Source of the DNA: Caldilineales bacterium
GTDB lineage: Bacteria; Chloroflexota; Anaerolineae; JAAEKA01
Assembly: GCA_041391245.1 (NCBI GenBank)
Contig: JAWKOJ010000004.1
Span: 691 to 64,690, forward strand
Direction: 5' to 3'
Length of the DNA stretch: 64,000 nucleotides
Positions 19,355 through 34,476 of the stretch are shown here, one piece after another. The position numbers and the translations under genes are program-made. Numbering within the stretch: the stretch's first letter is position 1; every line of letters starts with the position of its first letter. The notes under the pieces were generated by a model that was not told where the DNA came from, searched no databases, and saw only the letters and a list, made by a program, of their open reading frames with translations.

Positions 19355-22300
19355 ATGACGGACACACTTCAATCTATCGTCGTTACGCCTGTCGGCCAGT
19401 TGGAGCCTGCGCTGGCAATTGCCGCGACCCGCGCCGGCGCGTTGGGCTGCCTTGACCTTGAGTTCGCCGTCGACAATAGCGCTGCGCGCCGGGCTGTCAG
19501 GCGACTGGAGCAGCACGCCGGCGGACCGTATGGTGTCAAGGCCAGCTATCGCCAGACTGAACTTCTGGCGGCCTTGGACGATGGTTCTCTGCCGCGTTTG
19601 ACGTTTGTGCTACTCTCGGCTGACGGCGAGATCGATCGCGACGCGCTTCAGCGGCATGTGGAGGCAGCCCGCAGCCGCGGCCTGCGCGTGTTGCTCCAGG
19701 TCAGCGACATCCTCCTGGCTCAGACAGGTGAAGGCCTGGGAGTGGACGGCGTGGTGGCCAAGGGGCACGAGAGCGGCGGCTTCGTCGGCGAAGAGACGAC
19801 GTTCGTTCTGCTGCAGCGTTGCCTGATGCACCTGTCGTTGCCCGTCTTCGCCCATGGTGGAATCGGCCTGCACACCGCGGCTGCCTGTTACGCGGCCGGC
19901 GCGGCCGGCATCGTTCTCGACGCGCAGCTGGCGCTGGCCAAGGAGTCTCAACTGCCTGAAGCCGTCAAGGACGCCGTCGCATCCATGGACGGCAGTGAGA
20001 CCGTTTGTCTGGGCGCCGAGCTGGGGCAGGCCGTTCGTCTGTACAGGCGTCCACACACGGTGGCGACGAGACAGTTGGCGGAGACCGCATCTGCGCTGGA
20101 TAGTGAGGCGCAGAGCGACCGGCAGCAGGCCTGGCTGGACGCGGTAGAGAGCCGCATCGGCTGGGGCGATCTGGAGCAGCAGGCGTGGCCGTTGGGTCAG
20201 GACGCCGCCTTTGCACGCGCGCTGGCGGAACGCTATCACACCGTCGGCGGCATCTTGCAGGCCTATCGCGACAGCGTTGCCAGCCACATCGAGGCAGCGG
20301 CGCTCAGCCAGCCGCTGGATGCCGGTTCAGCGCTCGCGCAGTCCCACGGCACCCGTTATCCCATCGTTCAAGGACCTATGACGCGGGTCAGCGACACAGC
20401 CCGCTTTGCGTTCGACGTGGCCGAGGCTGGCGGACTGCCGTTCCTGGCGCTGGCGCTGATGCGCAAGGAGCAGGCCATGCCGGTGCTGGAGGAGACGAAA
20501 CACCTGTTGGGCGACCGTCCCTGGGGCGTGGGCATTCTGGGGTTCGTGCCGGCTGCCATACGCTCGCAGCAGCTTGAGGCCATTGCGGCGGTCGGACCCG
20601 ATTTTGCGATCATCGCCGGTGGCCGGCCCGATCAGGCCAAGACGCTGGAGAAGCAGGGCATCGCAACCTATCTGCACGTGCCGTCGCCCGCGCTGCTGCG
20701 GCTGTTCCTGGACGACGGCGCCAAGCGCTTCATCTTCGAGGGGCGCGAGTGCGGCGGACACGTTGGGCCGCGCGCCAGCTTCGTGCTCTGGAACGCCATG
20801 ATCGACGCGCTGCTGGCCCATTTCGACACCACCGGCGCCGATCCCGCAGCGTATCATATCCTTTTCGCTGGCGGGGTCCACGACTCGTTGTCGGCGCTGA
20901 TGGTGGCCAGCCTGGCCGGCCCGCTGGCCGAGCGAGGCGTGCGGATCGGCGTCCTCATGGGAACCGCCTATCTCTTCACCCACGAGGCGGTGACATCGGG
21001 CGCCATCACAGCACGCTACCAGCAGGAGGCTGTGCGCAGCAGGCAGACCGTGCTGGTCGAGTCGGGCGTCGGCCACATGACGCGCTGCCTGCCAACCCCC
21101 TTCGTCGAGGCGTTTGCGCAGCGCAAGCGCACCCTCGTTCAGGAAGGCGCGGACGGCGACCGTTTACGCCAGGAGCTGGAGGACCTGAACATTGGCCGCC
21201 TGCGCATGGCCAGCAAGGGGATCAACCGCAACCCTGACGCCCGCACCCAGCCCGGCGCTCCCGCCTACATCACGCTGGACGAGCAGGAACAATACCAGCA
21301 GGGCATGTACATGATCGGCCAGGTGGCGGGGCTGCGGGATGAGGTCTGCTCGCTGGAGGAGCTGCACCGGGAGGTGTCAGTGGCTGGCGCGCGGCGGCTG
21401 GCGAGCCTGGCTGCCACCCAGCAGCCTGCATCAACGGAGGCGCTCCTGCCGCCGCCGGCGCGTGTTGCCATCATCGGCATCGCCACTGTACTGCCTGGCG
21501 CCGCCGACTTGCAGACCTACTGGGAAAACATCCTTGACAAGGTCGATGCCATCAGCGAGATACCGGTCGAGCGCTTCGACTGGCGGCGCTACTACGATCC
21601 CGACAAGAGCGCCCGCGACAAGATCTACTCGCGCTGGGGCGGGTTCATCGACGATGTGCCGCTCAACCCGCTGGACTACGGCATGCCGCCCAACTCGATC
21701 CCCTCCATCGAGCCGATGCAACTGCTGATGCTGGAGGTCGTGCGCGCCGCGCTCAAGGACGCCGGCTATCTCGACCGCCCCTTTGCCCGCGAGCGGACTT
21801 CCGTGACAATGGCGGTCGGCGGCGGCCTGGGCGACCTGGGATTCAACTACGGCGTGCGCTCCTACTTGCCGCATTACCTGTCAGCCGCCTCTCAGGAGGT
21901 CATTGACAGGCTGGACGACGCTCTGCCGGAGTGGACCGAGGACTCGTTCCCCGGCATCCTGCTCAACGTGCTGGCCGGGCGGATCGCCAACCGCTTCAAC
22001 CTCAACGGACCGAATCTCGTCGTGGACGCCGCCTGCGGCTCGTCGCTGGCCGCACTCGATATCGCGGTCAAGGACCTGCAGACCCACCGAACCGACGTTG
22101 CCATCGTCGGCGGCGCCGACACGGTGCAAAGCCCATTCGGCTTCCTGGCTTTCAGCAAGACCCAGGCGCTGTCGCCGCGCGGCCGCTGCCGCCCCTTCGA
22201 CGTCGAGGCGGACGGAATCGCCATCAGCGAAGGGCTGGCAGTGGTGGTGCTGAAGCGTCTTGAGGACGCCGAGCGCGATGGCGACCGCATCTACGCGGTC

Positions 22301-25300
22301 ATCCAGGGTGTCGGTGCATCCAGCGACGGCCGCGACCGCAGCCTGACCGCGCCCCGGCCGCTGGGCCAGTTGCTGGCGCTGCGGCGAGCTTACGGCCAGG
22401 CTGGTTTCGACCCGGCGACGCTGAGTCTGATCGAGGCTCACGGCACCGGCACCCGGCTGGGCGACCAGGTCGAAGCCGAGGCGCTGGCGACTCTCTTCCA
22501 GGAATCGGGACTGGATCGACCGACCTGCGCAGTGGGTTCGGTCAAGTCGATGATCGGACACACCAAGAGCACGGCCGGGCTGGCCGGGATGATCAAGGTC
22601 GCCCTGGGTTTGTATCACAAGGTGCTTCCGCCGACGTTGGTGGACACGCCCAACCCCGACATCAGCCTCAACGGCAGCCCGATCTATGTCAACAGCGAGC
22701 CGCGTCCGTGGCTGCGACCTGACGACCGCGCGGCCCGGCGGGCAGGCGTCAGCGCGTTCGGCTTCGGCGGCACCAACTTCCACGCCGCGCTGGAGGAGTA
22801 CCGCGGCGACTATCTGCCGCGCAGCGCCAGCCGCCACACCTGGTCTGAGGAGATCGTTGTCCTGCGGGCAACCGATCGCGAGGGGTTGCTGGACGAGATC
22901 GACCGGCTGGCGGGCTGGCTGGAGGCCGGCAACACGCCGCCGCTGCGCCACCTGGCCTACACCATGGCTCGCCGCGCGCGCCGTGTTCGACAAGAGTCGG
23001 CGCTGACCCTGTCGTTGGTCGCCAGTTCGCTGGTGGATCTGCGCCAGATGTTGGCCATGGCCAGAAGCGAACTGCACGCGGGCGCCGACTTGATCCTGAA
23101 CCCGCAAGGAATCTACTTCGCCGACGAACCGCTGGGGCGAGCCGGCAAGGTGGCGTTCCTGTACCCCGGCCAGGGGTCACAGTACCCTAACATGCTGGCC
23201 GATCTGGTCATGCAGTTTCCGCATGTGGGTGAGCCGTTTGAGCGCGCCAATAGCCAGCTTGCCGGCAAACTGAAGCGGCCATTGGGCGAATACGTATACC
23301 CTGTTCCAGCCTACGACGACGACACGGCCAGCCGGCAGCGGGCTGAGTTGACCGACACGCGCATTGCGCAGCCGGCCCTGGGCGCAGCCGGGCTGGCGGT
23401 CAGCCGCTTCCTGGCGGCCGTGGGGCTGCAGCCCGACTTCGTTGCCGGGCACAGCTACGGCGAGCTGGTGGCCCTGTGCCAGGCGGGCGTCTTCGACGAG
23501 GACACGCTGTATGCGGTCTCGCTGGCCCGCGGGCAGTTCATGGCCGAGGCCACGGGCCCGGACTCCGGCACCATGGCGGCCGTCATCGCCGATCGGACCG
23601 TCGTCGAGGAGGTCATGCGCGGCTTGTCCGATGTGACGATCGCCAACCTCAACTCGCCGCGCCAGACGGTGATTTCCGGCCCGACGGCGGCTGTCGAACG
23701 CGCGGTCGAGGTGTTCATCCAGCGCGGCATCCAGGCCCGGCGCATTCCCGTTGCCTGCGCGTTCCACTCGCCGCTGGTCGAGCCGGCCCAGCAGCGGCTG
23801 GCCGAGTACCTGGAGGCTGTCGAGTTTCACCCGCCGCAGGTAGGTGTCTATTCCAACAGCCTGGGCGGCCCGTATCCCGACGATCCGGCGCAGATTCGTG
23901 ATGTCCTGTCGCGGCAACTGGCGCAGCCGGTGCGTTTCACCGAGGAGATCGAGGCGATGTACGCGGCCGGCGCGCGCATTTTCGTGGAGACCGGACCGCG
24001 CAGCGTGCTGACCGGGTTGGTGCACCAGATCCTGGGCAATCTGCCCCACCTGGCTGTGGCGGTCGACTCGGGCGGCCGCGGCTTATCGGCCGTCCAGCGG
24101 GCGCTGGCGCAGGTGATCGCCATCGGCGCAGACATCGACCTCAGCGTGCTCTACGAAGGCCGAGATGTGCAGGAGATCAGCCTCAACGCGCCCTACGCGG
24201 ATCCCGCCAGGGCAGCCTACGGTCCGACGACCTGGCTGGTCAACGGCGGGCGGGCGCGCCGCTGGCTCGATGTGGAGCGAGGGCTGCCGGAGCCGGTCGT
24301 CAAACCCCTCGACGTTGCGCTGGCGGCGAGTGCTGTGCCTGATCAGCCCGGCGTCTCTGCTGGGCAGCGCGAGCAGGTTGCCGAACCGCCGAGACCTGCG
24401 CCCGACCAGCCGCCGATCCCTGCCAAGCAGGTCGCAGCACAGCAGCAGAGCGCGCCGTTGCCGCAGGCCGCCGCTTACGGCGACGCGGCCCAGGTGATGG
24501 TCCAGACCCAGGAGTTAATGGCTCGTTTCCTGCAGATGCAGGCCAACGTGATGAGCAGTTATCTGGACGACGCTCCTCTGGCGCCTGCTCCTATCCTGCC
24601 TGGTGTTCCGGGTGGACAGACGGAGGTCACGCCGCCGGCTACGGAGCCGTTGCAGGCGGAGCCGGCGGCCGTGCTGAAGCGCCAGCCGCGGCTGCCCACG
24701 AGCCAGCCGGTCGCCGCCCCGTCGCCCATCCTGCGCTTCACGCTGGCCGCCGACCGGGCGCCGGTGATCAACGCAACGGCCGGCCTTGCGCCGGGCCGCG
24801 CGGTGCTGATTGCAGCCGACGCTTACGGCGTGGCGGACCAGGTGGCGGCGGCCCTGCGCGAGCAGGGTTACGACGCGGTGATAGTCCGTAACCGCCCGGC
24901 CAAGCATTCGAACGGCGCCAACGGGGCCAATGGCTCTGGCAGCAACGGGCGAGCCGCGCACTCAGATGACTGGCACTATGCGGCGACGCTGACGGACGGT
25001 GCAGATGTGAGGGCCGTGCTTTCGGCCGTTCGTCGCGAGCACGGGGCCATCGGCAGTCTGCTGTATCTGGCCGCCCTCAGCCCGGCGCAACCGTTCGCCG
25101 AGATGACGCTCGCCAGGTGGCAGCAACACGTCGAAGCTGATCTGGTCGCCTTCTTCAACCTGCTGCAGGACGTGCAGGCGGACCTGGTTGGCGCGGCCGC
25201 GGCCGGCGGAGCCTGCTTGCTGGCGGCAACGCAGATGGGCGGCGACTTTGCCGTTGGCGCTGAAAGCGCGGGCGACTTCTCGCCCGCGCAGGCCGGCATC

Positions 25301-25594
25301 GCCGGCTTGCTCAAGACGGCCGCGCACGAGTTGCCTGCAGTGCGCGCCAAGGTTGTCGACTTTGGCGCGACCGACGAAGCCAGCGAGCTTGCGCGGGCGA
25401 TTCTGGCCGAAACCGGCGCTGCCGACGGCTTGACAGAGGTCGGCTACCGCGACGGCGTGCGCACGATGATCACGCTGCGCCATGCGCCGGTCGATTCACG
25501 CCTGGCGAACACGGCAATCCTCGACGACCAGTGCGTGGTCCTGGTGACGGGCGGGGCGCGGCATCACGGCCAGCGTTGTGCAGGCGCTGGCTGA
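19355..25594 (+). CDS. PKS subunit: tandem NMO/PfaD-type enoylreductase domains-KS-AT-(KR N-terminal part); frame breaks at ~25556..25561
   Basis: Likely ATG at 19355 ('MTDTLQSIVVTPVGQ').
- ER-a: 'GVVAKGHESGGFVG', 'LPVFAHGGIGL'.
- ER-b from ~20342: 'YPIVQGPMTRVSD', 'EGRECGGHVGPRASF', 'GVLMGTAYLFTHE'.
- KS: 'VDAACGSSL' (Cys 22034..22036), 'HGTGTRLGD', 'KSMIGHTKSTAG'.
- AT: 'FLYPGQGSQYPNM', 'GHSYGE' (Ser 23453..23455), 'CAFH' (23756..23767).
- Pro/Ala linker, then KR 'VVLVTGGAR'.
- No carrier domain found. Confidence 0.88.
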   Translation: MTDTLQSIVVTPVGQLEPALAIAATRAGALGCLDLEFAVDNSAARRAVRRLEQHAGGPYGVKASYRQTELLAALDDGSLPRLTFVLLSADGEIDRDALQRHVEAARSRGLRVLLQVSDILLAQTGEGLGVDGVVAKGHESGGFVGEETTFVLLQRCLMHLSLPVFAHGGIGLHTAAACYAAGAAGIVLDAQLALAKESQLPEAVKDAVASMDGSETVCLGAELGQAVRLYRRPHTVATRQLAETASALDSEAQSDRQQAWLDAVESRIGWGDLEQQAWPLGQDAAFARALAERYHTVGGILQAYRDSVASHIEAAALSQPLDAGSALAQSHGTRYPIVQGPMTRVSDTARFAFDVAEAGGLPFLALALMRKEQAMPVLEETKHLLGDRPWGVGILGFVPAAIRSQQLEAIAAVGPDFAIIAGGRPDQAKTLEKQGIATYLHVPSPALLRLFLDDGAKRFIFEGRECGGHVGPRASFVLWNAMIDALLAHFDTTGADPAAYHILFAGGVHDSLSALMVASLAGPLAERGVRIGVLMGTAYLFTHEAVTSGAITARYQQEAVRSRQTVLVESGVGHMTRCLPTPFVEAFAQRKRTLVQEGADGDRLRQELEDLNIGRLRMASKGINRNPDARTQPGAPAYITLDEQEQYQQGMYMIGQVAGLRDEVCSLEELHREVSVAGARRLASLAATQQPASTEALLPPPARVAIIGIATVLPGAADLQTYWENILDKVDAISEIPVERFDWRRYYDPDKSARDKIYSRWGGFIDDVPLNPLDYGMPPNSIPSIEPMQLLMLEVVRAALKDAGYLDRPFARERTSVTMAVGGGLGDLGFNYGVRSYLPHYLSAASQEVIDRLDDALPEWTEDSFPGILLNVLAGRIANRFNLNGPNLVVDAACGSSLAALDIAVKDLQTHRTDVAIVGGADTVQSPFGFLAFSKTQALSPRGRCRPFDVEADGIAISEGLAVVVLKRLEDAERDGDRIYAVIQGVGASSDGRDRSLTAPRPLGQLLALRRAYGQAGFDPATLSLIEAHGTGTRLGDQVEAEALATLFQESGLDRPTCAVGSVKSMIGHTKSTAGLAGMIKVALGLYHKVLPPTLVDTPNPDISLNGSPIYVNSEPRPWLRPDDRAARRAGVSAFGFGGTNFHAALEEYRGDYLPRSASRHTWSEEIVVLRATDREGLLDEIDRLAGWLEAGNTPPLRHLAYTMARRARRVRQESALTLSLVASSLVDLRQMLAMARSELHAGADLILNPQGIYFADEPLGRAGKVAFLYPGQGSQYPNMLADLVMQFPHVGEPFERANSQLAGKLKRPLGEYVYPVPAYDDDTASRQRAELTDTRIAQPALGAAGLAVSRFLAAVGLQPDFVAGHSYGELVALCQAGVFDEDTLYAVSLARGQFMAEATGPDSGTMAAVIADRTVVEEVMRGLSDVTIANLNSPRQTVISGPTAAVERAVEVFIQRGIQARRIPVACAFHSPLVEPAQQRLAEYLEAVEFHPPQVGVYSNSLGGPYPDDPAQIRDVLSRQLAQPVRFTEEIEAMYAAGARIFVETGPRSVLTGLVHQILGNLPHLAVAVDSGGRGLSAVQRALAQVIAIGADIDLSVLYEGRDVQEISLNAPYADPARAAYGPTTWLVNGGRARRWLDVERGLPEPVVKPLDVALAASAVPDQPGVSAGQREQVAEPPRPAPDQPPIPAKQVAAQQQSAPLPQAAAYGDAAQVMVQTQELMARFLQMQANVMSSYLDDAPLAPAPILPGVPGGQTEVTPPATEPLQAEPAAVLKRQPRLPTSQPVAAPSPILRFTLAADRAPVINATAGLAPGRAVLIAADAYGVADQVAAALREQGYDAVIVRNRPAKHSNGANGANGSGSNGRAAHSDDWHYAATLTDGADVRAVLSAVRREHGAIGSLLYLAALSPAQPFAEMTLARWQQHVEADLVAFFNLLQDVQADLVGAAAAGGACLLAATQMGGDFAVGAESAGDFSPAQAGIAGLLKTAAHELPAVRAKVVDFGATDEASELARAILAETGAADGLTEVGYRDGVRTMITLRHAPVDSRLANTAILDDQCVVLVTGGARHHGQRCAGAG

Positions 25595-26399
25595 GCGCTA
25601 CCGGCCCACGGTCATCCTGGTCGGACGCTCGCCGGCGCCGCCGGAGCAGGAAGCCGCGGAGACTGCCAACCTGACGACGGCGCGCGAGATCAAGGCGGCG
25701 CTGCTGCGCGGCATGGGCAGCCAGGACAAGCCGGCCGCGCTGGCCGAGGTCGAGGCGGCCTATGGGCGTTTGCTGCGCGAGCGGGAGATGCGAAGCAATC
25801 TGCGTCGTCTGCAGCGCACCGGCGCCCGGGTCGAGTATCACTCGCTGGATGTGCGTGACGAGGCGGCGTTTGCGGCGCTGATCGAGGGCATCTACACGCG
25901 CTTTGGCCGCCTTGACGGCGTGATCCACGGTGCGGGCGTGGTCGAGGACAGACTGATCAAGGACAAGACGGTCGACTCGCTGCGGCGGGTAGTGAGCACC
26001 AAGGTGGACAGCGCCTTCGTCCTCAGCCGCTCGCTGCGGCCCGAGTCGCTCAAGTTCCTGGTGTTCTTCTCGTCGGTGAGCGGGCGCTTCGGCAACCGCG
26101 GCCAGGGCGACTATGCCGCGGCCAACGAGGTGCTCAACAAGCTGGCGGTGCTGCTGGATCGCGCCTGGCCGGCGCGCGTTGTGGCCATCAACTGGGGACC
26201 ATGGGATGCGGGCATGGTATCCGACGAGCTGCGCCGCCAGTTTCAACAGCGGGGAGTCAGCCTTGTGCCCGTCGATGCGGGGTCGCAGCGGTTGATCGAG
26301 GAGCTGAACGCCGGCCAGAAGCGCGCCCCCGAGGTGCTGATCTGCGGCGAGGACAACCAAGTCATGGCGCGCGCAGCGTCCACCAGGGTTGCCGGGTGA
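25578..26399 (+). CDS. Ketoreductase catalytic part, continuation of the 19355 gene in a shifted frame
   Basis: The shifted frame reads '(GITASV)VQALAERYRPTVILVGRS', i.e. the rest of the TGGARGIT Rossmann motif. Later 'HGAGVVEDRL', 'FFSSVSGRFGNRGQGDYAAANEVLNKLA' and 'INWGPWDAGMV'. Confidence 0.85.
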   Translation: MQALAERYRPTVILVGRSPAPPEQEAAETANLTTAREIKAALLRGMGSQDKPAALAEVEAAYGRLLREREMRSNLRRLQRTGARVEYHSLDVRDEAAFAALIEGIYTRFGRLDGVIHGAGVVEDRLIKDKTVDSLRRVVSTKVDSAFVLSRSLRPESLKFLVFFSSVSGRFGNRGQGDYAAANEVLNKLAVLLDRAWPARVVAINWGPWDAGMVSDELRRQFQQRGVSLVPVDAGSQRLIEELNAGQKRAPEVLICGEDNQVMARAASTRVAG

Positions 26400-26911
26400 C
26401 TTGATTGGATCTTATGGCTGTAATGGTGACTACCGCAGCAAGGGCCGGCATACAATTACCGCAACAAATCGATGTTGCCCCGCAATGTTGAATGCAAGGA
26501 TCACACAAACATAGATCCCGGCCTATGTTAGTACCTAATGCTGGAAACCGCGCCAGAATCGTTCAACATGCATCGTTGAACATATTGAAATCCCCACAAA
26601 GTTGTGAGCCGCTCCACCCTGGCTGTGCAGAGAGAACCAATCTTGCTTGAGTTCTCTCGTGCTCCCTAACCGGCGCTATTAAAGTTATCGGCCGCACGAA
26701 TCCGCGTGATTGGTGGCAGTGGTTTTGGCTTTGTTGGGAAAACGACGCGCGGACTTGAGGCAACTTCACCGTAAGAACACAAGAAACCGCGGTATTGACA
26801 TCGCAAGATGAGTTCACCACACCGATACTGTCCTGTCAACGACACGGCAGGACGGTTGCGGTACCAAGAGACTCTTTTTCAATACCTGTGCAACCATCAG
26901 GCATCTGAGAA

Positions 26912-29900
26912 ATGACAGGAATATCAGCATTGAGCGAAAGAGCGGACCCCGCCAGCCGGGGAGTTGCCATCATCGGGATGTCATGCATGTTTCCCGGTGC
27001 GAAGGACCTGGCGACGTTCTGGCAGAACATCGTCGACAAAGTAGATGCAGTCACTGATCCTCCTCCAGAGGCGTGGGAGTCGAACATCTTCTATGATCCT
27101 TCATCGGCTGCCAACGACCGCGTTTATTGCAAGAAGGGAGGCTTTCTTGGCCCGCTGGCCGAGTTCAACCCATTGGACTACGGGATCATGCCGATTGGTC
27201 TGGACGGGGGCGAGCCGGATCAATGGCTGGCGCTCAAGCTGGCCTACGACGCGCTGGCCGATGCCCGCTACTTAGACCGCCTGAAGGAAAACTCGGACGA
27301 GCGACACCGCACAGCGGTCATTCTGGGCAAGGGAACCTATCTGAACCGGGGTAACCTCAACATGGTTCAGCACAGCCTGGTGGTTGACCAGACGCTGCAA
27401 GTTCTGCAATCCCTCCATCCTGAGTACGGCGAGGAGGACTTGCAGGCGGTGCGCGCCGAGCTGAAGCGCAAGCTGCCGCCTTTCGACGCCGGGACTGCCC
27501 CCGGACTCGTGCCGAACATTGCCGCCGGCCGCATCGCCAACCGGCTCGACCTGATGGGACCCTCGTACACGGTGGACGCGGCCTGCGCCTCGTCGCTGAT
27601 AGCGGTCGAGATCGCGCTGCGCGACCTGGAGAGTGGGCGCTGCGATCTGGCGCTGGTTGGCGGCGCCCAGGTAACGACGCCGATTCCGATCCTGACGCTG
27701 TTCTCACAATTGGGCGCGCTCTCGCGCCAGGAGCAGATCCGGCCGTTCGATGCGGCTGCCGACGGTACCATCCTCTCAGAAGGGATCGGCATGCTGGTGC
27801 TCAAGCGGGAGGAAGATGCCATACGCGACGGCGACCGCATCTATGCGGTCATCAAGGGCGCCGGCTCCTCCAGCGATGGCCGCGCGATGAGCGTACTCAC
27901 GCCGCGGTTGGAGGGCGAGGTGTTGGCGCTGCGGCTGGCCTACGAGAACGCGGGTATCGACCCGGCAACCGTCGGCCTGATCGAAGCTCACGGAACGGGG
28001 ACGCTGGTCGGCGACGCGACCGAGATCGAGGCGTTGCGCATGGTCTTTGGCGAGCGCGAGGGAGCGGTTGCCCGCACAGCGCTGGGCACTGTCAAGTCGA
28101 TGATCGGCCATACCATGCCCGCCGCCGGCGTCGCGGGCATCATCAAGGCGGCGCTGGCGCTGCACAACAAGGTGCTGCCGCCGACCATCCACTGCGAGAC
28201 GCCGAATCCGAAGCTGGGGCTGGAAGACTCGAACTTCTATCTGAACTCGGAGTCCCGCCCGTGGATCCGCAACCGCGAGACACCGCGCCGCGCCGGAGTG
28301 AACGCGTTTGGCTTTGGCGGCGTCAACGCCCACGTCGTGCTGGAGGAGGCGCAACCGCTGACCGGTGCAGACTCCACCAGCCATCTGAACGCATGGGACA
28401 GCGAGGTCGTCGTCGTGGCCGCGGCAGACCGGGACGGGCTGCTCGAAGCGGCCGCCGATCTGGTTGCCTTTCTGAACAGCGTTCCAGACCTGGAAAGCCC
28501 TGGCTTTAGCCTGCTGGACCTTGCCTGGACCGTGAACCGGGGTGCGGGCGAACAACCCGTCCGGCTGGCGGTGGTGGCAACCTCGGTCAGCGACCTGCGC
28601 GACAAGCTGGCGCGGGCCGTCGAACGGCTGCAGAAGCCCGATACCCGCCGCATCAAGGATGTGCGCGGCATCTACTTCTTCGAGGAGCCGTTCTATCCGC
28701 AGGGCAAGCTGGCTTTCCTTTTCCCCGGCGAGGGATCACAGTATCCCAACATGCTGGCCGACCTGGCGATACATTTCCCGGAGGTCAGAACCGCCTTTGA
28801 CCGCATCGACCGCATCTTTGCCGGCCATCCGCGGGGCTACGTGCCCAGCGATTTCATCTTCCCGGCGCCCGGGCTGCCCGAGGATTCTGTGGTTGCCCGG
28901 CAGCTTTGGGAGATCGACGGCGCGGTGGAGGCAGTGCTGACCGGCAACGCCGCGATGCACGCGCTGCTGCTAAAGCTGGGCGTGCAGCCTGACGCGATGG
29001 TCGGTCACAGCACGGGAGAGTACTCGGCTCTGCTGGCGTCCGGCATGATCGCGGTCGGCGAGGACGAGTTTGTGGGCCGCTATCTGCTTAACCTCAACCA
29101 GATGTACGAGGAGGTGACGCAGGACAACAACGTGCCGCGGGCGTTTATGCTGGCGGTGGGCGCGGGACTGGACACGGTTGCCCCACTGGTCGAGCAGGCC
29201 GGCGACCGCGTGTTCGTGGGCATGGACAACTGCCCGCACCAGTCGGTGGTGGTGGGCGACGAAGCGGCGCGCGATGGCCTGACCGCGGCCATGAACGCCG
29301 AAGGGTTGATCTACGAGAGCCTGCGTTTCGACCGCGCCTACCACACACCCCTGTTTCAGCCTTACAGCAGTCTTTTCGAGGATTTCTACACGCAGCTTCC
29401 GTTGGCCGCGCCGGGTGTCACCACCTATTCCTGCGTGACGGCCGCGCCCTTTGGCGATAGCCCGGACGATATTCGGACGCTGGCCGTGGCAAACTGGGTC
29501 AACCGGGTGCGTTTCCGCGAGACGGTTCAGGCGATGTACGACGACGGTGTGCGCATCTTTGTCGAGGTCGGCGCGCGCGGCAATCTGACAGCGTTCGTTG
29601 GTGATGTCCTGAGAGGCCAGCCCCATCTGGCCGTGCCTGCCAACATTCAGCAGCGCTCGGGCATTACCCAACTCAACCATCTGGCTGCGCTGCTGTGCGC
29701 CCAGGGTGTGCCGGTGGATCTGGAGTTCCTCTACGCACGCCGGCGCCCGCAAGCCGTGAACCTGTCAGGTGCGCCGAAAGGGCAACGAAAAGGTACGCTG
29801 AAGCTGGCCTCAGGCTGGGCCGGCATGGAGGTTTCTCCAGATGCAGCAAAGCAGATTCGCGGCCGGCTGGCCGGCAATCCCGCCATCGGTCAGCACAGCC

Positions 29901-32419
29901 CAGCGCCGCGCGCTGCGGCGCCAGCTACTTCGCCGCGACAGCAACACAAGGAAGAGAATGCAGCTGAAATGACTCACACTTCACAAGCCAATGGAAACCA
30001 GGGTGGTCTACGCCCACAAGCGCCGCCGGATACAGCCGCCCCGTTGCTCACCCAGGCAGCGGTGGATGGCCGCACGTTGGTCATGCAGAGCCATCTGCAA
30101 CTGATGGACCAGTTCTTGCGTACCCAGGAGACGTTGGTGCAGCAGTTCCTTTCGGGTTCTCCCGCGCCGGCGAGCACTGCCTATCGGCCCAACCTGATGC
30201 CTGCTTCGCCGTCACCGGTGGTGGCGCCTGCAGCGCCACCCGTTCAGCCGGCGCCGCCGCAGCCCCTGGCCGTTCCGGCCTCGGTGCAAGAGCCGGCGGT
30301 TCCGTCCTGGACCATGCCGCCGGCAGAGGCATCACAGCCGCCGGATCTGAAGGATCTGCTGCTGAACCTGGTGAGCGACAAGACGGGCTATCCGGTGGAG
30401 GTGCTGTCGCTGAACGCCAACCTGGAGGCCGACCTCGGCATCGACTCGATCAAGCGGGTCGAGATATTGGGCGCGTTCAACCAGGAGACGGGTCTCGTGG
30501 AAGGCGACACCATGGAACAGGTCTCAGCACTGAAGACGTTGGGGGCGATTCTTGATTTTTTTCGCTTGACGGCCACCCCGCAGACCAAACCGCCCGCGGG
30601 TTGGCCGTCCTCTCCCCTGCCGGCTCCCTCGCCTGACCTGCCGAGACGCATGCCATTCATGCGAGACACGCGCGCGTTCGTGCCGGGCCAGGAGTTGGAC
30701 GCTCTGTGCCCGCTGGACGTCAACGAAGATCTGTTCATGCGCGACCACACGCTGGGCCGCGACATATCCCGTCTGGACGCCGATCTGCTGGCGTTGCCCA
30801 TCGTGCCGCTAACCGTCACCATGGAGATCATGGCGGAGGCAGCGGCTGTGCTGGCGCCGGAAATGGTGCTGACAGGGATGCGCAACTTGCGCGCCTACCG
30901 CTGGATCATCCTGGAAGAAGGCCGAGGCACGTTGCAGGTGACCGCCAGGCGGCGGGCAAGCGAGCACGGCGCCGAGTTCGACGTCGTGGTGCGCGCCCTG
31001 CCGGGAGGCGATGCGGCGGAGCCTTCTGGCCTGCTGCCGGCCGTGGCTGAAGGGATTATGGTGTTCGCACCTGGCTATCCTGAGCCACCGGCCGTGCCGC
31101 CGCTGGTGTTGCAGGACGAGCGGCCCAGCCGGTGGCAGCCTGAGCTGCTCTATCGCGATGGGATGTTCCATGGGCCGGCGTTTCGCGCCGTCACGTCGAT
31201 CGAGCGGGTGGGCAGCAACGGTCTGACGGCGACGATGGAAGCGCTGCCAACCGACAAGTTCCTGCGCTCGAACGCCAGTCCTGACTTCATCGCCGAACCG
31301 ATCGTTCTCGACGCTGCCGGCCAGTTGGTAGGATTCTGGACGCTGGAGACGCTGGAGCAGGGCTTTGTGGTCTTTCCGTATCACCTGGACGCGCTGCACT
31401 TCTACGGGCCGCCGCTGCCAGCGGGCGAGCGGGTGACCTGCCAGGTCGGCACGACGCTGCTGGAAAACCTGCAGATGACCTCCGACATCGACATCCTGGA
31501 CGAGGCAGGTCGGTTGCGCATGCGGCTGGAGGCGTGGGACGACAAAAGGTTCGACATTCCGCGCCCGTTCTATCGCTTCATCCTCAGCCGCGGCGAGGCG
31601 CAGCTCAGCGAGCCGTGGACTGCGCCCCTGGCAGGCTATCCGGCAGGAGACGCATACCGCGCCCGCAAGATCAGCGGATTCCCCGCTGGCTTTTTCCAGG
31701 CCCACTACGGGCTGTGGGAGAAGACTCTGGCGCACCTGGTGCTGACGCGGTCTGAGCGGCAGGTTTGGCGCGGCATGACCGGCGCCGACCGGCGGCGCAC
31801 CGACTGGCTGCTGGGGCGCGTGGCAGCCAAGGAGGCGCTTGCCGTTTATCTGCACGATGTGTATAATCTGCCACTCAAGCCAGCGGACATCGAGATCTCT
31901 ACCGACGAACGCGGGAGCCCGTATGTGACGGGCGATTGGCTGCCAGCAACAGATCAGCCAATCGCGGTCACTATTGCCCACGCGGGCGGGGTCGCCGTGG
32001 CCGTGGCCGGGCAGGTGCGCAACGACGGCCGGATGCCGGGAATCGGCGTCGATCTGGAGCCGGTGCAGCGGCAGGACGCCTCCTTCGCCGACGTGGCGTT
32101 CACCAGGCAGGAACAGTTGCTGCTTGCTGACCTGGGCGATCCCCAGGTGGACAAATGGCCGTTGCGAGTATGGTGCGCCAAAGAAGCAGTCGGCAAGGCG
32201 TTGGGCTATGGGTTGGCGGCCGGCCCGCACAGCGTCACTGTTGAACGGGTCGACACGGACAGCGGTTTTGTCACCATGAACCTGGCGGGAACGCTGGTCG
32301 ATCTGTTCCCCAACCTGTCAGGCGAGAAGATCGCTGCCTATACCGCGCGTGAGAACGGCTATGTGCTCGCCAGTGTTCTCGGTCGCGAAGCGCAGCAACC
32401 AGCGCACGGTGACTCGTAA
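26912..32419 (+). CDS. PKS subunit KS-AT-ACP-DH-PPTase (PUFA-synthase / enediyne-PKSE-like layout, no KR)
   Basis: - KS: 'VDAACASSL' (Cys 27584..27586), 'HGTGTLVGD', 'KSMIGHTMPAAG'.
- AT: 'FLFPGEGSQYPNM', 'GHSTGE' (Ser 29009..29011), 'RAYH' (29333..29344).
- Long Pro/Ala/Gln linker.
- ACP: 'LEADLGIDSIKRVEILGAF' (Ser 30446..30448).
- DH: 'FMRDHTLGR...LPIVP' (His 30746..30748) and 'LDAAGQL'.
- C-terminal Sfp-type PPTase. Confidence 0.88.
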   Translation: MTGISALSERADPASRGVAIIGMSCMFPGAKDLATFWQNIVDKVDAVTDPPPEAWESNIFYDPSSAANDRVYCKKGGFLGPLAEFNPLDYGIMPIGLDGGEPDQWLALKLAYDALADARYLDRLKENSDERHRTAVILGKGTYLNRGNLNMVQHSLVVDQTLQVLQSLHPEYGEEDLQAVRAELKRKLPPFDAGTAPGLVPNIAAGRIANRLDLMGPSYTVDAACASSLIAVEIALRDLESGRCDLALVGGAQVTTPIPILTLFSQLGALSRQEQIRPFDAAADGTILSEGIGMLVLKREEDAIRDGDRIYAVIKGAGSSSDGRAMSVLTPRLEGEVLALRLAYENAGIDPATVGLIEAHGTGTLVGDATEIEALRMVFGEREGAVARTALGTVKSMIGHTMPAAGVAGIIKAALALHNKVLPPTIHCETPNPKLGLEDSNFYLNSESRPWIRNRETPRRAGVNAFGFGGVNAHVVLEEAQPLTGADSTSHLNAWDSEVVVVAAADRDGLLEAAADLVAFLNSVPDLESPGFSLLDLAWTVNRGAGEQPVRLAVVATSVSDLRDKLARAVERLQKPDTRRIKDVRGIYFFEEPFYPQGKLAFLFPGEGSQYPNMLADLAIHFPEVRTAFDRIDRIFAGHPRGYVPSDFIFPAPGLPEDSVVARQLWEIDGAVEAVLTGNAAMHALLLKLGVQPDAMVGHSTGEYSALLASGMIAVGEDEFVGRYLLNLNQMYEEVTQDNNVPRAFMLAVGAGLDTVAPLVEQAGDRVFVGMDNCPHQSVVVGDEAARDGLTAAMNAEGLIYESLRFDRAYHTPLFQPYSSLFEDFYTQLPLAAPGVTTYSCVTAAPFGDSPDDIRTLAVANWVNRVRFRETVQAMYDDGVRIFVEVGARGNLTAFVGDVLRGQPHLAVPANIQQRSGITQLNHLAALLCAQGVPVDLEFLYARRRPQAVNLSGAPKGQRKGTLKLASGWAGMEVSPDAAKQIRGRLAGNPAIGQHSPAPRAAAPATSPRQQHKEENAAEMTHTSQANGNQGGLRPQAPPDTAAPLLTQAAVDGRTLVMQSHLQLMDQFLRTQETLVQQFLSGSPAPASTAYRPNLMPASPSPVVAPAAPPVQPAPPQPLAVPASVQEPAVPSWTMPPAEASQPPDLKDLLLNLVSDKTGYPVEVLSLNANLEADLGIDSIKRVEILGAFNQETGLVEGDTMEQVSALKTLGAILDFFRLTATPQTKPPAGWPSSPLPAPSPDLPRRMPFMRDTRAFVPGQELDALCPLDVNEDLFMRDHTLGRDISRLDADLLALPIVPLTVTMEIMAEAAAVLAPEMVLTGMRNLRAYRWIILEEGRGTLQVTARRRASEHGAEFDVVVRALPGGDAAEPSGLLPAVAEGIMVFAPGYPEPPAVPPLVLQDERPSRWQPELLYRDGMFHGPAFRAVTSIERVGSNGLTATMEALPTDKFLRSNASPDFIAEPIVLDAAGQLVGFWTLETLEQGFVVFPYHLDALHFYGPPLPAGERVTCQVGTTLLENLQMTSDIDILDEAGRLRMRLEAWDDKRFDIPRPFYRFILSRGEAQLSEPWTAPLAGYPAGDAYRARKISGFPAGFFQAHYGLWEKTLAHLVLTRSERQVWRGMTGADRRRTDWLLGRVAAKEALAVYLHDVYNLPLKPADIEISTDERGSPYVTGDWLPATDQPIAVTIAHAGGVAVAVAGQVRNDGRMPGIGVDLEPVQRQDASFADVAFTRQEQLLLADLGDPQVDKWPLRVWCAKEAVGKALGYGLAAGPHSVTVERVDTDSGFVTMNLAGTLVDLFPNLSGEKIAAYTARENGYVLASVLGREAQQPAHGDS
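31742..32416 (+). other. Fused Sfp-type 4'-phosphopantetheinyl transferase domain
   Basis: 'GRVAAKEALAVYL', 'GIGVDLEPV' and 'WCAKEAVGKALG', the classical PPTase motifs, at the C-terminus of the 26912 gene. Confidence 0.8.
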
Positions 32420-32541: not shown

Positions 32542-32847
32542 ATGCAACCTATTACACGAACCGAAGTTTGGGACGCAACATTGCGTCTGTTGGAGCAACT
32601 GTCCGAAGATTGGGACTATGACGACGAGATAACCGGCGAAACCTGGCTGTTCTCCGAGCTGGGTTTCCAGTCGCTGGATGCCGTTGTGCTGGGCAACACG
32701 TTGCAGGAGCGATTCGGCCGCCCGATCCCCTTCGCCGACCTCCTGGTAGACATCGGGCAACGGCCGGTCAACGACGTGACGGTCGACGAGTGGGTCGATT
32801 TCACTACCAAAAGCCTGCAATCCTACGACCTTGAAAAGGCATCATGA
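32542..32847 (+). CDS. Discrete acyl carrier protein
   Basis: ~101 aa from the ATG at 32542 ('MQPITRTEVWDATLRLLEQL'). Attachment motif 'ELGFQSLDAVVLGNTL' (Ser codon 32671..32673). The stop overlaps the next gene's ATG (ATGA). Confidence 0.75.
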   Translation: MQPITRTEVWDATLRLLEQLSEDWDYDDEITGETWLFSELGFQSLDAVVLGNTLQERFGRPIPFADLLVDIGQRPVNDVTVDEWVDFTTKSLQSYDLEKAS

Positions 32848-34454
32848 GCAAGAAGACGGTGTTAGTTGGGTTGGACGGCGCCACCTTCACACTCCTTGAT
32901 CCCTTCATGGAGCAAGGCGTGATGCCGTTCCTGAAGTCGTTTGTCGAGCGCGGGGTGCGGGCCGAGCTGCGCAGCGTTGTGCCGCCGCTCACTCCGCCTG
33001 CCTGGACAACGGTGCTTACCGGCCGTTCTCCCGGCCACCATGGAATCTTCGATTTCTTCCAGGCTGATGGGCCTGGCAGCAAGGCTATCAGGCTGGCAAC
33101 CTCGGGCGACATCCAGGTCGATCACGTCGCTGAGATGGTCAACCGGGGCGGAAAGCGGGCTACGGTTGTCAACTTCCCGGTTCACTTTCCGCCGCCTGCT
33201 ATCGACGGCGTGGTCATCGCCGGCTGGATGCCGTGGCGGCAACTGCGGCTTGGCTGCCATCCGCCCGATCTCTACGACCGGCTCAAGCAACTGCCGAACT
33301 TCAGCCCGCGCGAGCTGGCCATGGATATGGCACTGGAAGCCAGGGCGACCGAAGGGTGCGATGAGGCAGAGTACGTGGAGTGGGTCGGGCTGCACACGCG
33401 CCGCGAGGAGCGCTGGTTGGACGTGCTTGGCTATCTGCTCGATGACGAACCCAGCGACCTGACTGCTGTGCTGCTGGACGGCCCGGACAAGGTGCAGCAT
33501 CTCTGCTGGCGGTTTCTCGATCCGGCGCTGTGGCCGGCCGAGCCGACCGCCGAAGAGGTTCGCATTCGCGAGGCAAGCATCGGCTACTACCGGCGGCTGG
33601 ACAACATCCTGGCCGCGCTGGTTGACAAGGCCGGGCCCGATGCCACGGTGGTCATGGTTTCGGATCACGGCTTCGGCGCCTCCACTGAAGTCTTCCACGT
33701 CAACAGTTGGCTGGAACGGGCCGGCTATCTGGCGTGGTCGCAGGACGTGGCAGCGCAACTGGGCGAGGGCGACACGCTGGGCATGGGACACCTCTCGCGG
33801 CACAGCCGCTGGCTGGACTGGGAACGGACCACAGCCTACGTCTCCACGCCGACCAGCAACGGCATCCACATCGTGCGCGCCGAACAACATGGCGGGCGCG
33901 GCGTGGCGGCAGCGGACTACGATCGCTTCCGCGCCGAACTGGTGGACGCGCTGCTGGGCTATGTGGACGAGCGCGACGGCAAACCGGTGGTGACAGCCGT
34001 GGCAACGCGGGAGGAGGCATTCGACGGCGCCGCAGGGGCGCTGGCTCCCGACCTCACGCTGACGCTGCGCGATGGCGGATTGGTGTCGATCCTGCCCTCC
34101 AGCGAGATCGTGGCGCCCCGGCCACAGCCGGTCGGCACGCACCGGCCGCTGGGCGTGTTCCTGGCTGCCGGCCCCGGCATCCGCCAGGGAGCATCCATCG
34201 AGGAGCTGTCGCTGGTGGACGTGACGCCGATCCTCCTGTACAGCCTGGGTATCGCCTTGCCCGATGATCTGGAGGGACACGTGCCTGTCGACATGGTTAC
34301 GCCGGAGCAACTGGCCAGCCATCCGGTCGAGGTGGATGGGCGGCAGCCGGCCAGCCGTGAGGATCGGAGCAGCGCAAGCCAACAGATCCTGTATGACGAC
34401 GAAGCAGAGGCGATTTTGTTAGCACGATTACGAGAGTTGGGCTATGTCGAATAG
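32844..34454 (+). CDS. Alkaline-phosphatase-superfamily enzyme (type I phosphodiesterase/nucleotide pyrophosphatase-like)
   Basis: 536 aa. N-terminus 'VLVGLDGATFTLLDPFM', nucleophile region 'PPLTPPAWTTVLTGRSPGHHGI', later 'VVMVSDHGFG'. Pattern of the PF01663/COG3379 type. Confidence 0.7.
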   Translation: MSKKTVLVGLDGATFTLLDPFMEQGVMPFLKSFVERGVRAELRSVVPPLTPPAWTTVLTGRSPGHHGIFDFFQADGPGSKAIRLATSGDIQVDHVAEMVNRGGKRATVVNFPVHFPPPAIDGVVIAGWMPWRQLRLGCHPPDLYDRLKQLPNFSPRELAMDMALEARATEGCDEAEYVEWVGLHTRREERWLDVLGYLLDDEPSDLTAVLLDGPDKVQHLCWRFLDPALWPAEPTAEEVRIREASIGYYRRLDNILAALVDKAGPDATVVMVSDHGFGASTEVFHVNSWLERAGYLAWSQDVAAQLGEGDTLGMGHLSRHSRWLDWERTTAYVSTPTSNGIHIVRAEQHGGRGVAAADYDRFRAELVDALLGYVDERDGKPVVTAVATREEAFDGAAGALAPDLTLTLRDGGLVSILPSSEIVAPRPQPVGTHRPLGVFLAAGPGIRQGASIEELSLVDVTPILLYSLGIALPDDLEGHVPVDMVTPEQLASHPVEVDGRQPASREDRSSASQQILYDDEAEAILLARLRELGYVE

Positions 34455-34476
34455 CCGGACAAGGAGCGAGTAGCCA

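What the first reader, a model, noticed from the sequence alone, without database searches (positions are those of the whole stretch)
19355..32419. Split iterative synthase: ER-ER-KS-AT-KR without any carrier domain, paired with KS-AT-ACP-DH-PPTase without KR
Seen:
- The 19355 gene starts with two NMO/PfaD-type TIM-barrel domains ('GHESGGFVG..FAHGGIGL' and 'GRECGGHVGP..FAGGVHD..LMGTAYLF'), then KS, AT and KR. I find no Ser-bearing carrier motif in it.
- The 26912 gene has KS, AT, a single PUFA-style ACP ('LGIDSIKRVEIL'), a DH and a fused Sfp-type PPTase.
- Both KS domains keep Cys-His-His and both ATs keep GHSxGE, so neither looks like a chain-length factor.

Established:
- KS-AT-ACP-KR-DH-PPTase is the enediyne PKSE layout.
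- PUFA synthases use a separate PfaD ER.

Inference:
- The two proteins must share the single ACP (or the free ACP at 32542) and act as one fully reducing iterative machine.
- That is a domain distribution different from both the PKSE and Pfa archetypes.
Basis: partly seen in the sequence, partly recalled or inferred. Interest (0 to 1): 0.62.

Follow-up and report, generated by a model that had tools for sequence, protein, structure and literature searches.

The report
Two-protein lipid synthase sharing one carrier
Two adjacent giant genes of an uncultured wastewater Chloroflexota bacterium encode a fatty-acid-synthase-like machine of a family catalogued in 2011 and related to the Azotobacter cyst-lipid synthase; its only unusual trait is that the first protein has lost its carrier domain and must use its partner's.

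Summary
Gene A (19355..26399) reads ER-like, ER, KS, malonyl-AT, structural KR, KR, with no carrier domain in any frame. Gene B (26912..32419) reads KS, AT, one ACP, DH, Sfp-type PPTase, with no KR. A small free ACP follows (32542..32847).

The layout is not new. Shulse & Allen (2011) list ER-KS-MAT-ACP(1-3)-KR / KS-AT-PPTase / ACP as secondary-lipid synthase types M, N and O. Type P is the ArsA/ArsD fatty acid synthase of Azotobacter phenolic lipids. A is 40-45% identical to the ArsA-like protein of Beijerinckia indica pBIND02. B's DH-PPTase half aligns end to end with its ArsD-like protein.

What is particular here:
- A cleanly lacks the roughly 110-residue ACP that most relatives carry between AT and KR, yet is under purifying selection.
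- The first ER copy never has the catalytic His in any relative.
- B's AT lacks the malonyl-binding Arg, as PfaB does.

The frame break in A's KR is absent from two public runs, so it is probably an assembly error.

Best reading: one iterative, fully reducing ArsA/ArsD-type synthase working on B's ACP. It feeds an orphan glycosylated, possibly sulfated, long-chain lipid pathway. This is a variant of a known kind, of modest interest.

The parts
19355..25594 (+). Gene A, first reading frame as written in the window (2079 aa from the ATG): ER-like, ER, KS, malonyl-AT, linker, structural KR. It ends 'VVLVTGGARHHGQRCAGAG*' because of the frame break.
19406..20263 (+). ER1, a FabK/NMO-type TIM-barrel domain. 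It lacks the catalytic His ('GHESGGFVG', Phe143) and the GPM motif. Likely a non-catalytic partner of ER2.
   Evidence: FabK E 2.4e-24; PDB FabK alignment; 0 of 91 relatives have His here; the motifs are defined in PMC13311796
20396..21364 (+). ER2, a FabK/PfaD-type enoyl reductase with 'YPIVQGPM' and 'GRECGGHVG' (His469).
   Evidence: (His in 91 of 91 relatives)
21461..22639 (+). KS of A. Cys894 (DAACGSS), His1029 (EAHGTGT) and His1069 (KSMIGHT); numbering from the ATG at 19355.
23156..24031 (+). AT of A, a malonyl transferase: GQGSQ, GHSYGE (Ser1367), ARGQFM (Arg kept), CAFH.
24032..24799 (+). Pro/Ala-rich linker where relatives carry one to five ACPs. No ACP here; there is a clean gap of about 110 residues in the alignment.
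24800..25375 (+). Structural (pseudo-)KR subdomain, a weak adh_short match.
25555..25556 (+). Frame break inside the KR Rossmann motif (TGGAR|GITAS). Contigs of two public runs carry two extra bases here and read through.
   Evidence: the same pattern holds at the three FAAL frame breaks
25548..26399 (+). Gene A, second reading frame: catalytic KR (Lys152, Ser176, Tyr189 in 'KVDS', 'SSVSG', 'YAAAN'; numbering of this frame).
   Evidence: PF08659 E 2e-37; PfaA profile positions 2016-2270; dN/dS 0.12-0.16
26400..26911 (.). 512-bp non-coding spacer between A and B, partly conserved in the closest species genome (L007). Most other relatives have overlapping A and B genes.
26912..32419 (+). Gene B (1835 aa): KS, Arg-less AT, ACP, DH, PPTase.
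26957..28198 (+). KS of B: Cys225, His360, His400. A paralogue of A's KS (41% identity over KS-AT) that forms a separate clade.
28715..29614 (+). AT of B: GHSTGE (Ser700) and RAYH (His811) are kept. The malonyl-binding Arg is replaced by Leu ('LNLNQMY') and the Gln is lost. PfaB-like long-chain acyltransferase signature.
30329..30571 (+). The only ACP domain of the pair ('LGIDSIKRVEIL', Ser1179).
30650..31552 (+). PS-type dehydratase (His1279; 'FHGP'; Asp1467 in 'LDAAGQ'), homologous to the N-terminal half of the ArsD-like protein.
31709..32371 (+). Sfp-type PPTase ('GVDLE', 'WCAKEAVGK'), homologous to the C-terminal half of the ArsD-like protein.
32542..32847 (+). Discrete ACP (101 aa; 'LGFQSLD', Ser44), conserved after gene B from Chloroflexota to Desulfobacterota.
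32844..36224 (+). Conserved accessory trio. It comprises an alkaline-phosphatase-superfamily phosphodiesterase-like protein (32844..34454), an alpha/beta hydrolase (34477..35343) and an SDR of the 3-ketodihydrosphingosine-reductase-like subfamily (35340..36224).

Best explanation
Genes A and B are the two subunits of one iterative, fully reducing, type I fatty-acid-synthase-like 'secondary lipid' synthase. It belongs to the ArsA/ArsD lineage (Shulse & Allen types M-P).

Shown by sequence:
- A supplies a KS, a malonyl-specific AT, a KR and one competent FMN-type ER (ER2). ER2 is preceded by a conserved His-less ER-like domain (ER1).
- B supplies a second, paralogous KS, an AT without the malonyl-binding Arg and Gln, the only ACP of the pair, a PS-type DH and an Sfp-type PPTase.
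- B's DH-PPTase half is the counterpart of ArsD.

Inferred mechanism:
1. B's PPTase primes B's ACP and the free ACP.
2. A's AT loads malonyl units onto B's ACP.
3. The KS domains extend the chain.
4. KR (A), DH (B) and ER2 (A) reduce each beta-keto group.
5. ER1 serves as the structural dimer partner of ER2.
6. B's PfaB-like AT moves the finished long chain off the ACP, perhaps onto the discrete ACP.
7. The neighbouring hydrolase, SDRs, methyltransferase, glycosyltransferase and sulfotransferase then turn it into a decorated long-chain lipid of unknown structure.

In this Anaerolineae/Caldilineae lineage A has lost its own ACP, so it depends wholly on a carrier in trans. The frame break in A is most likely an assembly error.
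For: Domains and catalytic residues.

No ACP in A.

A is kept by selection:
- dN/dS is 0.14-0.15 against the two nearest ACP-less relatives, and 0.12-0.16 behind the frame break.
- The ACP-less A sequences P0121-P0126 form one well-supported clade (100/99) nested among ACP-bearing ones.

An intact reading exists in public runs at full depth. The window's three other frame breaks behave the same way.

Pairing of A and B:
- A and B are adjacent in L001-L007 and L075.
- The KS-A and KS-B clades are separated at 100/99 support and have parallel topologies.

Carrier position varies between relatives:
- A with ACPs and B without (L004).
- A without and B with, and no free ACP gene nearby (L005).
- Motif counts over 240 homologues.

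Family link:
- The layout is catalogued in File S1 of PMC3098273.
- A is 45% identical (aa 5-1669) and 40% identical (aa 1861-2337) to the ArsA-like protein of B. indica pBIND02. The unaligned part is its two ACPs.
- B residues 1247-1820 align with residues 71-608 of the 629-aa ArsD-like protein (E 5e-61). That protein is itself PS-DH + ACPS.

PfaB parallel for B's AT.

ER1/ER2: the catalytic His is absent in 0 of 91 ER1 copies and present in 91 of 91 ER2 copies. Its role, and ER dimerisation, are described in PMC13311796.
Against: - No biochemical data exist for any type M/N/O member, and the product is unknown.
- Which carrier A uses (B's ACP or the free ACP) is not decided by sequence.
- The role of the second KS-AT is unexplained. 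The characterised ArsA/ArsD relatives do without it, since the ArsD-like protein is only DH-PPTase.
- The off-loading role of B's AT rests on analogy with PfaB, which has GYSxG rather than GHSxG.
- The ER1-ER2 pairing is not shown: the AlphaFold model was poor (pLDDT 61.6, pTM 0.48).
- The two runs that show the intact frame come from one study and may include the sample the window was assembled from.
- I could not compare sequences with the named type M/N/O reference organisms, only with type P.
Confidence: 0.75

Rival explanations
1. A and B are two separate synthases acting in sequence rather than one machine. A would work with the discrete ACP (32542..32847) to build a reduced chain. B would work on its own ACP for a later step, for example one or a few extra condensations and a dehydration.
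For: - A discrete ACP is conserved right after B across phyla and is listed in the 2011 catalogue.
- KS-B and AT-B form their own paralogous lineage with a different AT active site.
- ArsA/ArsD-type systems work without any second KS-AT.
Against: - A has no DH, so it cannot finish a reductive cycle without B's DH.
- B has no KR and no malonyl-competent AT, so its DH and KS need A's KR and AT.
- L005 pairs an ACP-less A with an ACP-bearing B and has no free ACP gene next to them.
- The family ACP profile does not recognise the free ACP, so it is a different carrier type.
Confidence: 0.13
2. Gene A is a decaying pseudogene. It would have lost its ACP and then suffered a frameshift in its KR, so the pair is no longer functional in this organism.
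For: - The frame break at 25555/25556 truncates the KR as written.
- A lacks a domain that most relatives have.
Against: - Contigs of two public runs read through the break at full depth.
- All three other frame breaks of the window are likewise absent from those runs, which points to deletion errors in the assembly.
- dN/dS is 0.12-0.16 in the KR part behind the break and 0.14-0.15 overall.
- ACP-less A genes of 2318-2357 aa are intact in several distinct relatives.
Confidence: 0.03
3. The pair is a PKSE-like (enediyne/polyene) or PUFA-type synthase. It would make a polyunsaturated chain rather than a saturated one.
For: - B's order KS-AT-ACP-DH-PPTase resembles PKSE minus its KR.
- The best NCBIfam model for both KS-AT regions is PfaA (TIGR02813; 854 and 684 bits).
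- The ACP motif is PUFA-like.
Against: - Both PfaA scores are below the model's cut-off of 1010.
- There is no CLF, no FabA-type DH pair and no tandem ACPs.
- B's AT lacks the malonyl-binding Arg.
- DynE8 is only a weak hit (E 2e-9).
- A competent ER and KR are present.
- The homologous ArsA system makes long saturated acyl chains.
- The neighbours are lipid-tailoring genes, and no further PKS or enediyne-type families appeared among them.
Confidence: 0.05

Closest known systems
ArsA/ArsD type I fatty acid synthase of the phenolic-lipid (alkylresorcinol) pathway. It is Shulse & Allen type P (Azotobacter vinelandii; Beijerinckia indica pBIND02).
   Same: - ArsA-like protein: pseudo-ER (no His), ER (His), KS, malonyl-AT, KR in the same order; 40-45% identical to A.
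- ArsD-like protein: PS-DH + PPTase, collinear with B's C-terminal half (E 5e-61).
- The DH and PPTase are supplied by the second protein in both systems.
   Different: - ArsA-like proteins carry one or two ACPs; A has none.
- The ArsD-like protein has no KS, AT or ACP.
- Type III PKS genes lie between arsA and arsD; none are present here.
- Here the neighbours are a free ACP, an AP-type phosphodiesterase, a hydrolase, SDRs, a methyltransferase, a glycosyltransferase and a sulfotransferase.
Secondary lipid synthase types M, N and O of Shulse & Allen 2011. Examples are Frankia, Renibacterium, Actinosynnema, Streptomyces avermitilis, Chryseobacterium, Chitinophaga, Dinoroseobacter, Gloeobacter and Parvularcula.
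   Same: The three-gene layout ER-KS-MAT-ACPn-KR / KS-AT-PPTase / ACP. Products are uncharacterised.
   Different: - Every catalogued member has one to three ACPs in the first protein; here there are none.
- The catalogue does not annotate the ACP and DH of the second protein or the duplicated ER.
- Sequence comparison with these named organisms could not be run here.
Pfa PUFA synthase (PfaA, PfaB, PfaC, PfaD, PfaE)
   Same: - PfaA-like KS-MAT...KR, with a PfaA profile match.
- PfaD/FabK-type FMN ER.
- PUFA-style ACP motif.
- An Arg-less and Gln-less AT like PfaB.
- A PPTase encoded with the synthase.
   Different: - No KS-CLF.
- No FabA-type DH pair.
- One ACP instead of four to nine.
- ER and PPTase are fused into the synthase proteins.
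- PfaA profile scores are below the cut-off.
Enediyne PKSE (for example DynE8, CalE8, SgcE): KS-AT-ACP-KR-DH-PPTase
   Same: One polypeptide with KS, AT, a single ACP, a PS-type DH and a C-terminal Sfp-type PPTase.
   Different: - B has no KR, and there is no room for one between ACP and DH.
- Its AT is not malonyl-type.
- It is always paired with an ER-bearing partner.
- The DynE8 AT is only a weak match.

Membership tests
ArsA/ArsD-type two-subunit secondary lipid synthase (Shulse & Allen types M-P) | The first protein begins with an FMN-type ER fused to KS-MAT and ends in KR. | tested here: met
   Pfam and NCBIfam domains. Same order as the B. indica ArsA-like protein. Layout listed in File S1.
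ArsA/ArsD-type two-subunit secondary lipid synthase (Shulse & Allen types M-P) | One or more ACP domains in the first protein, between MAT and KR. | tested here: not met
   No ACP by Pfam, NCBIfam or a family-specific HMM in six frames. Clean gap against relatives. At cluster level an ACP is still present, on B and as a free gene.
ArsA/ArsD-type two-subunit secondary lipid synthase (Shulse & Allen types M-P) | The second protein ends in a PPTase (KS-AT-PPTase in types M/N/O; ArsD in type P). | tested here: met
   B is KS-AT-ACP-DH-PPTase. Its DH-PPTase half aligns with the whole ArsD-like protein (E 5e-61).
ArsA/ArsD-type two-subunit secondary lipid synthase (Shulse & Allen types M-P) | A discrete ACP gene directly downstream (types M/N/O). 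| tested here: met
   32542..32847, Ser kept, conserved in L001-L004 and L006. Listed in File S1.
ArsA/ArsD-type two-subunit secondary lipid synthase (Shulse & Allen types M-P) | Sequence homology to a catalogued member. | tested here: met
   B. indica pBIND02 (type P): 45% and 40% identity over two blocks of A. Its KS groups with the KS-A clade at moderate support, 86/52. The type M/N/O reference organisms were not available for comparison.
ArsA/ArsD-type two-subunit secondary lipid synthase (Shulse & Allen types M-P) | Makes long saturated acyl chains from malonyl-CoA that stay bound to the ACP. | not testable with these tools
   Known only for ArsA/ArsD, from papers. The primary papers are not held.
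Enediyne PKSE | KR domain between ACP and DH in the same polypeptide. | tested here: not met
   No KR or SDR hit in B. About 25 residues separate the ACP from the DH.
Enediyne PKSE | Malonyl-specific AT. | tested here: not met
   Arg replaced by Leu in all B homologues inspected.
Pfa PUFA synthase | KS-CLF didomain and a FabA-type DH pair (PfaC). | tested here: not met
   Both KS domains have Cys-His-His. Only one PS-type DH is found.
Pfa PUFA synthase | PfaA profile (TIGR02813) above its curated cut-off; tandem ACPs. | tested here: not met
   854 and 684 bits against a cut-off of 1010.1. A single ACP.

The most novel reading that the evidence does not exclude
The ACP-less A subunit works entirely in trans on the single ACP of B. 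On this reading the family's extra KS and Arg-less AT on B form a PfaB-like hand-over module. That module would pass the finished chain to the discrete ACP. The conserved alkaline-phosphatase-type phosphodiesterase, the hydrolase and the SDR would then release and process the chain by a route not yet described. The end product would be an unidentified class of glycosylated or sulfated long-chain lipids. Relatives occur at 535 or more places in the species-representative genome collection, across many phyla.
Probability: 0.15. Interest if true: 0.6.

Novelty: new variant of a known kind. Interest (0 to 1): 0.3.

Why it matters
The family is very widespread. ER-ER relatives were found at 535 or more places in the species-representative genome set, across Chloroflexota, Acidobacteriota, Planctomycetota, Actinomycetota, Desulfobacterota and others. 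Only the ArsA/ArsD branch has a known product.

This copy is a natural case in which one megasynthase subunit keeps all its catalytic domains but no carrier. That makes it a clean system for asking how an ACP on one polypeptide serves active sites on another.

Four features are testable handles on an orphan lipid pathway:
- the His-less ER copy, found across the family;
- the PfaB-like AT;
- the DH-PPTase identity of the ArsD-like protein;
- the conserved accessory cassette.

None of this overturns current understanding. The layout was catalogued in 2011.

Tried and rejected
- **Literature strings.** Searches for 'ER-KS-AT', 'KS-AT-ACP-DH-PPTase' and similar found nothing relevant. Searches on PUFA synthase with Chloroflexi or glycolipid gave only general papers.
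- **Primary ArsA/ArsD papers.** The two PNAS papers are not held, so their content is cited second-hand.
- **Search seeded with the Micromonospora sonchi homologue.** It found cultured holders (Micromonospora, Planctomyces sp. SH-PL62, Paludisphaera borealis, Isosphaeraceae EP7, Baekduia soli). It did not find the named type M reference organisms.
- **AlphaFold2 of ER1-ER2.** Run on a 7-sequence alignment, it gave pLDDT 61.6 and pTM 0.48. That is too poor to judge domain packing, so no fold search was run.
- **Rfam scan of the 512-bp A|B spacer.** Only a chance-level hit.
- **Cryptic ACP.** Searched for in other frames and in the spacer, and rejected.
- **PKSE, canonical Pfa and pseudogene readings.** Rejected; see the rival explanations.
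Full report
**What is there**

The window carries a long co-directional gene cluster. Gene A opens at the ATG at 19355 (the ORF is open from 19325). Pfam and NCBIfam find:
- two FabK/NMO-type TIM-barrel regions;
- a KS (aa 713-1105 on the 19325 numbering);
- an AT (1278-1569);
- a weak SDR-like region (1826-2017).

The frame then stops at 25594 with 'VVLVTGGARHHGQRCAGAG*'. The next frame (25548..26399) continues 'GITASVVQALAERYRPTVILVGRS' and holds a strong KR (PF08659, E 2e-37; PfaA profile positions 2016-2270). Close relatives of 2318-2346 aa read 'VTGGARGITASVV' in a single frame. A is therefore one gene of about 2350 codons, 19355..26399, broken at 25555/25556.

Gene B (26912..32419, 1835 aa) has a KS, an AT, one PP-binding domain ('LGIDSIKRVEIL'), a PS-type DH and an ACPS-type PPTase. 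It has no KR. A small ACP gene follows at 32542..32847.

**Is the frame break real?**

Contigs of two public wastewater-metagenome runs cover the site at full depth (25 and 29.6). Both carry two extra bases behind 25555, which keeps one frame open. The three frame breaks that another first-stage note reported in the upstream FAAL domain are also places where these runs have one, one and two extra bases. All four breaks are thus deletions in the window relative to the population, which is the pattern of assembly error.

The KR part behind the break has dN/dS 0.12-0.16 against the two nearest relatives.

Caveat: the two runs come from one study and may include the source sample.

**Is there a hidden carrier in A?**

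No.
- Pfam and NCBIfam find nothing in the AT-KR linker.
- I built an HMM from 228 ACP segments of this family. I ran it without filters on all six frames of 19000-33000. The only hit is B residues 1140-1220 (E 1.8e-32). Nothing appears in A or in the 512-bp spacer.
- Relatives at 55-59% identity carry 'LEADLGIDSIKRVEILG' between AT and KR. Aligned with them, A and its closest relatives show a clean gap of about 110 residues.

Several distinct ACP-less A sequences exist and are intact (P0123-P0126; L001, L005, L007). In the KS tree, P0121-P0126 form one clade (100/99) nested among ACP-bearing sequences. Whole-gene dN/dS is 0.14-0.15. The loss is a kept state, not decay.

**Domain competence**

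- Both KS domains keep Cys-His-His.
- A's AT has GQGSQ, GHSYGE and the Arg in 'ARGQFM', the malonyl signature, throughout its homologues.
- B's AT keeps the Ser-His dyad. HMMER alignments to solved ATs put Leu where the carboxylate-binding Arg should be ('LNLNQMY'), and the upstream Gln is lost. This holds in all B homologues inspected.
- The same loss of the Gln-Arg pair defines PfaB, shown experimentally to handle long-chain acyl groups rather than malonyl (PMC12895367).
- B's DH has invariant His1279 and Asp1467. Its PPTase has invariant GxDxE and WxxKExxxK.
- A's KR keeps Lys, Ser and Tyr.

For the two ER copies:
- The second has 'YPIVQGPM' and 'GRECGGHVG'.
- The first reads 'GHESGGFVG' and lacks the GPM motif.
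- In 91 homologues with both motifs, the first copy never has His (Trp 42, Arg 25, Phe 11, Leu 8, Tyr 4, Ile 1). The second always does.
- That His is the proposed catalytic residue of FabK and PfaD, and these ERs act as dimers (PMC13311796).
- ER1 is nonetheless well conserved. I read it as a structural partner of ER2.
- An AlphaFold model was too poor to test this (pLDDT 61.6, pTM 0.48).

**Relatives and context**

The 120 best B homologues share its Pfam set and size. The 120 best A homologues are ER-ER-KS-AT with or without ACP, then KR, with or without DH. Neighbourhoods from Caldilineae, Anaerolineales and Deltaproteobacteria, and from unnamed metagenome contigs, show the same operon:
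- A, B, a small ACP;
- an alkaline-phosphatase-superfamily phosphodiesterase-like protein of about 536 aa;
- an alpha/beta hydrolase and an SDR;
- often a methyltransferase, a second SDR, an unknown protein of about 690 aa, a macrolide-type glycosyltransferase and a sulfotransferase (window genes).

The carrier moves between subunits:
- L004 has an A of 2913 aa with ACPs and a B of 1648 aa without one.
- L005 has an ACP-less A, an ACP-bearing B and no free ACP gene beside them.
- Motif counts give 0, 1 or 2 ACPs in 19, 83 and 18 A homologues, and in 16, 99 and 5 B homologues. Some of the zero counts are truncated sequences.

KS-A and KS-B form two clades separated at 100/99 support, with parallel internal branching. 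They span more than ten phyla and include cultured Micromonospora sonchi. Further cultured holders appear.

**Comparison with what is known**

The main text of Shulse & Allen 2011 does not spell out the layouts of types M-P. Earlier notes of this scan pointed to them. File S1 confirms them:
- 'ER-KS-MAT-ACP2-KR', 'KS-AT-PPTase', 'ACP' for Frankia, Renibacterium, S. avermitilis, Chryseobacterium, Dinoroseobacter and Gloeobacter (ACP3);
- 'ER-KS-MAT-ACP-KR' + 'PPTase' for Azotobacter vinelandii and Beijerinckia indica (type P).

A tblastn of ER1-ER2 against plasmids hit B. indica pBIND02 (43% identity over 99% of the query; E 2e-146). That locus encodes:
- a 2674-aa ER(Gln)-ER(His)-KS-AT-ACP-ACP-KR protein;
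- two type III PKS-like proteins;
- a 629-aa protein that Pfam resolves into PS-DH + ACPS;
- a glycosyltransferase and an ABC transporter.

A is 45% identical to the large protein over residues 5-1669 and 40% over 1861-2337. The unaligned block is its two ACPs. B residues 1247-1820 align with residues 71-608 of the 629-aa protein (E 5e-61). B is therefore a KS-AT-ACP module fused to an ArsD-like DH-PPTase.

ArsA is described as the fatty acid synthase that makes the long alkyl chain of the cyst phenolic lipids and hands it from its ACP to ArsB/ArsC.

PKSE membership fails: no KR and a non-malonyl AT. Canonical Pfa membership fails: no CLF, no FabA-type DH pair, one ACP, and PfaA profile scores below the cut-off.

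**Mechanism and verdict**

Shown:
- complementary domain sets on the two proteins;
- intact catalytic residues;
- constant pairing of the two genes;
- a mobile carrier position;
- homology to ArsA/ArsD.

Inferred:
- A and B form one iterative, fully reducing synthase that works on B's Ser1179 ACP.
- A's AT is the only malonyl loader.
- B's AT moves long chains, possibly to the free ACP.
- The downstream genes release, reduce, methylate, glycosylate and perhaps sulfate the product.

The role of the second KS is open. Its functional inference is the best reading. Its claim of a new layout is not upheld. The one unusual point is the complete loss of the carrier from the ArsA-like subunit in this Chloroflexota lineage. 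This is a variant of a known, largely uncharacterised kind.

Noticed in passing
window 10894, 10931, 11600 and 25555: All four frame breaks in the window are sites where contigs of two public wastewater runs carry one or two extra bases. Three are in the FAAL domain and one is in A's KR. The assembly seems to have systematic small deletions, so other apparent pseudogenes in this genome should be treated with care.
   Followed up: yes
window 19406-20263, and all A homologues: The first of the two ER domains never has the catalytic His across the family (Trp, Arg, Phe, Leu, Tyr, Ile or Gln instead). It also lacks the GPM motif, yet it is well conserved. The B. indica ArsA-like protein shows the same (Gln).
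   Followed up: partly
L087 25106-26995 (Beijerinckia indica pBIND02): Papers describe ArsD simply as a PPTase. The ArsD-like protein here is a PS-type dehydratase fused to a PPTase. The DH of the ArsA-type synthase would therefore be supplied in trans by the second protein.
   Followed up: partly
window 26400-26911; L007 about 17011-17385: A 512-bp non-coding spacer separates A and B. A shorter, partly similar spacer is present in the nearest species genome. In other relatives A and B overlap. It may hold an internal promoter or regulatory element. Rfam finds nothing.
   Followed up: partly
window 10159-18911: An upstream FAAL-ACP-KS-AT-KR-ACP-TE-TE polyketide synthase is present only in the closest relatives (L001, L007) and not in more distant clusters. 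It may prime the A/B system or further extend its product.
   Followed up: no
window 35340-38297: Both cluster SDRs match the 3-ketodihydrosphingosine-reductase-like subfamily (E 7e-46 and 6e-56). The methyltransferase between them resembles 2-ketoarginine C-methyltransferase (E 1e-38). This hints at methylation next to a keto group on a long chain, followed by reduction.
   Followed up: no
window 38338-42557: Two adjacent proteins of about 700 aa have no Pfam or NCBIfam match. A homologue of about 690 aa recurs in the same position in distant relatives (L001, L002, L003).
   Followed up: no
window 42575-48432: The cluster continues with a macrolide-family glycosyltransferase, a sugar epimerase/dehydratase, a nucleotidyltransferase, a glycosidase-like protein and a sulfotransferase. 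A glycosyltransferase plus sulfotransferase pair also follows the synthase in L006.
   Followed up: no
L006 967-9978: In another long contig the A gene is split into three ORFs (2160, 92 and 597 aa). This is probably another assembly frameshift rather than a natural split.
   Followed up: no
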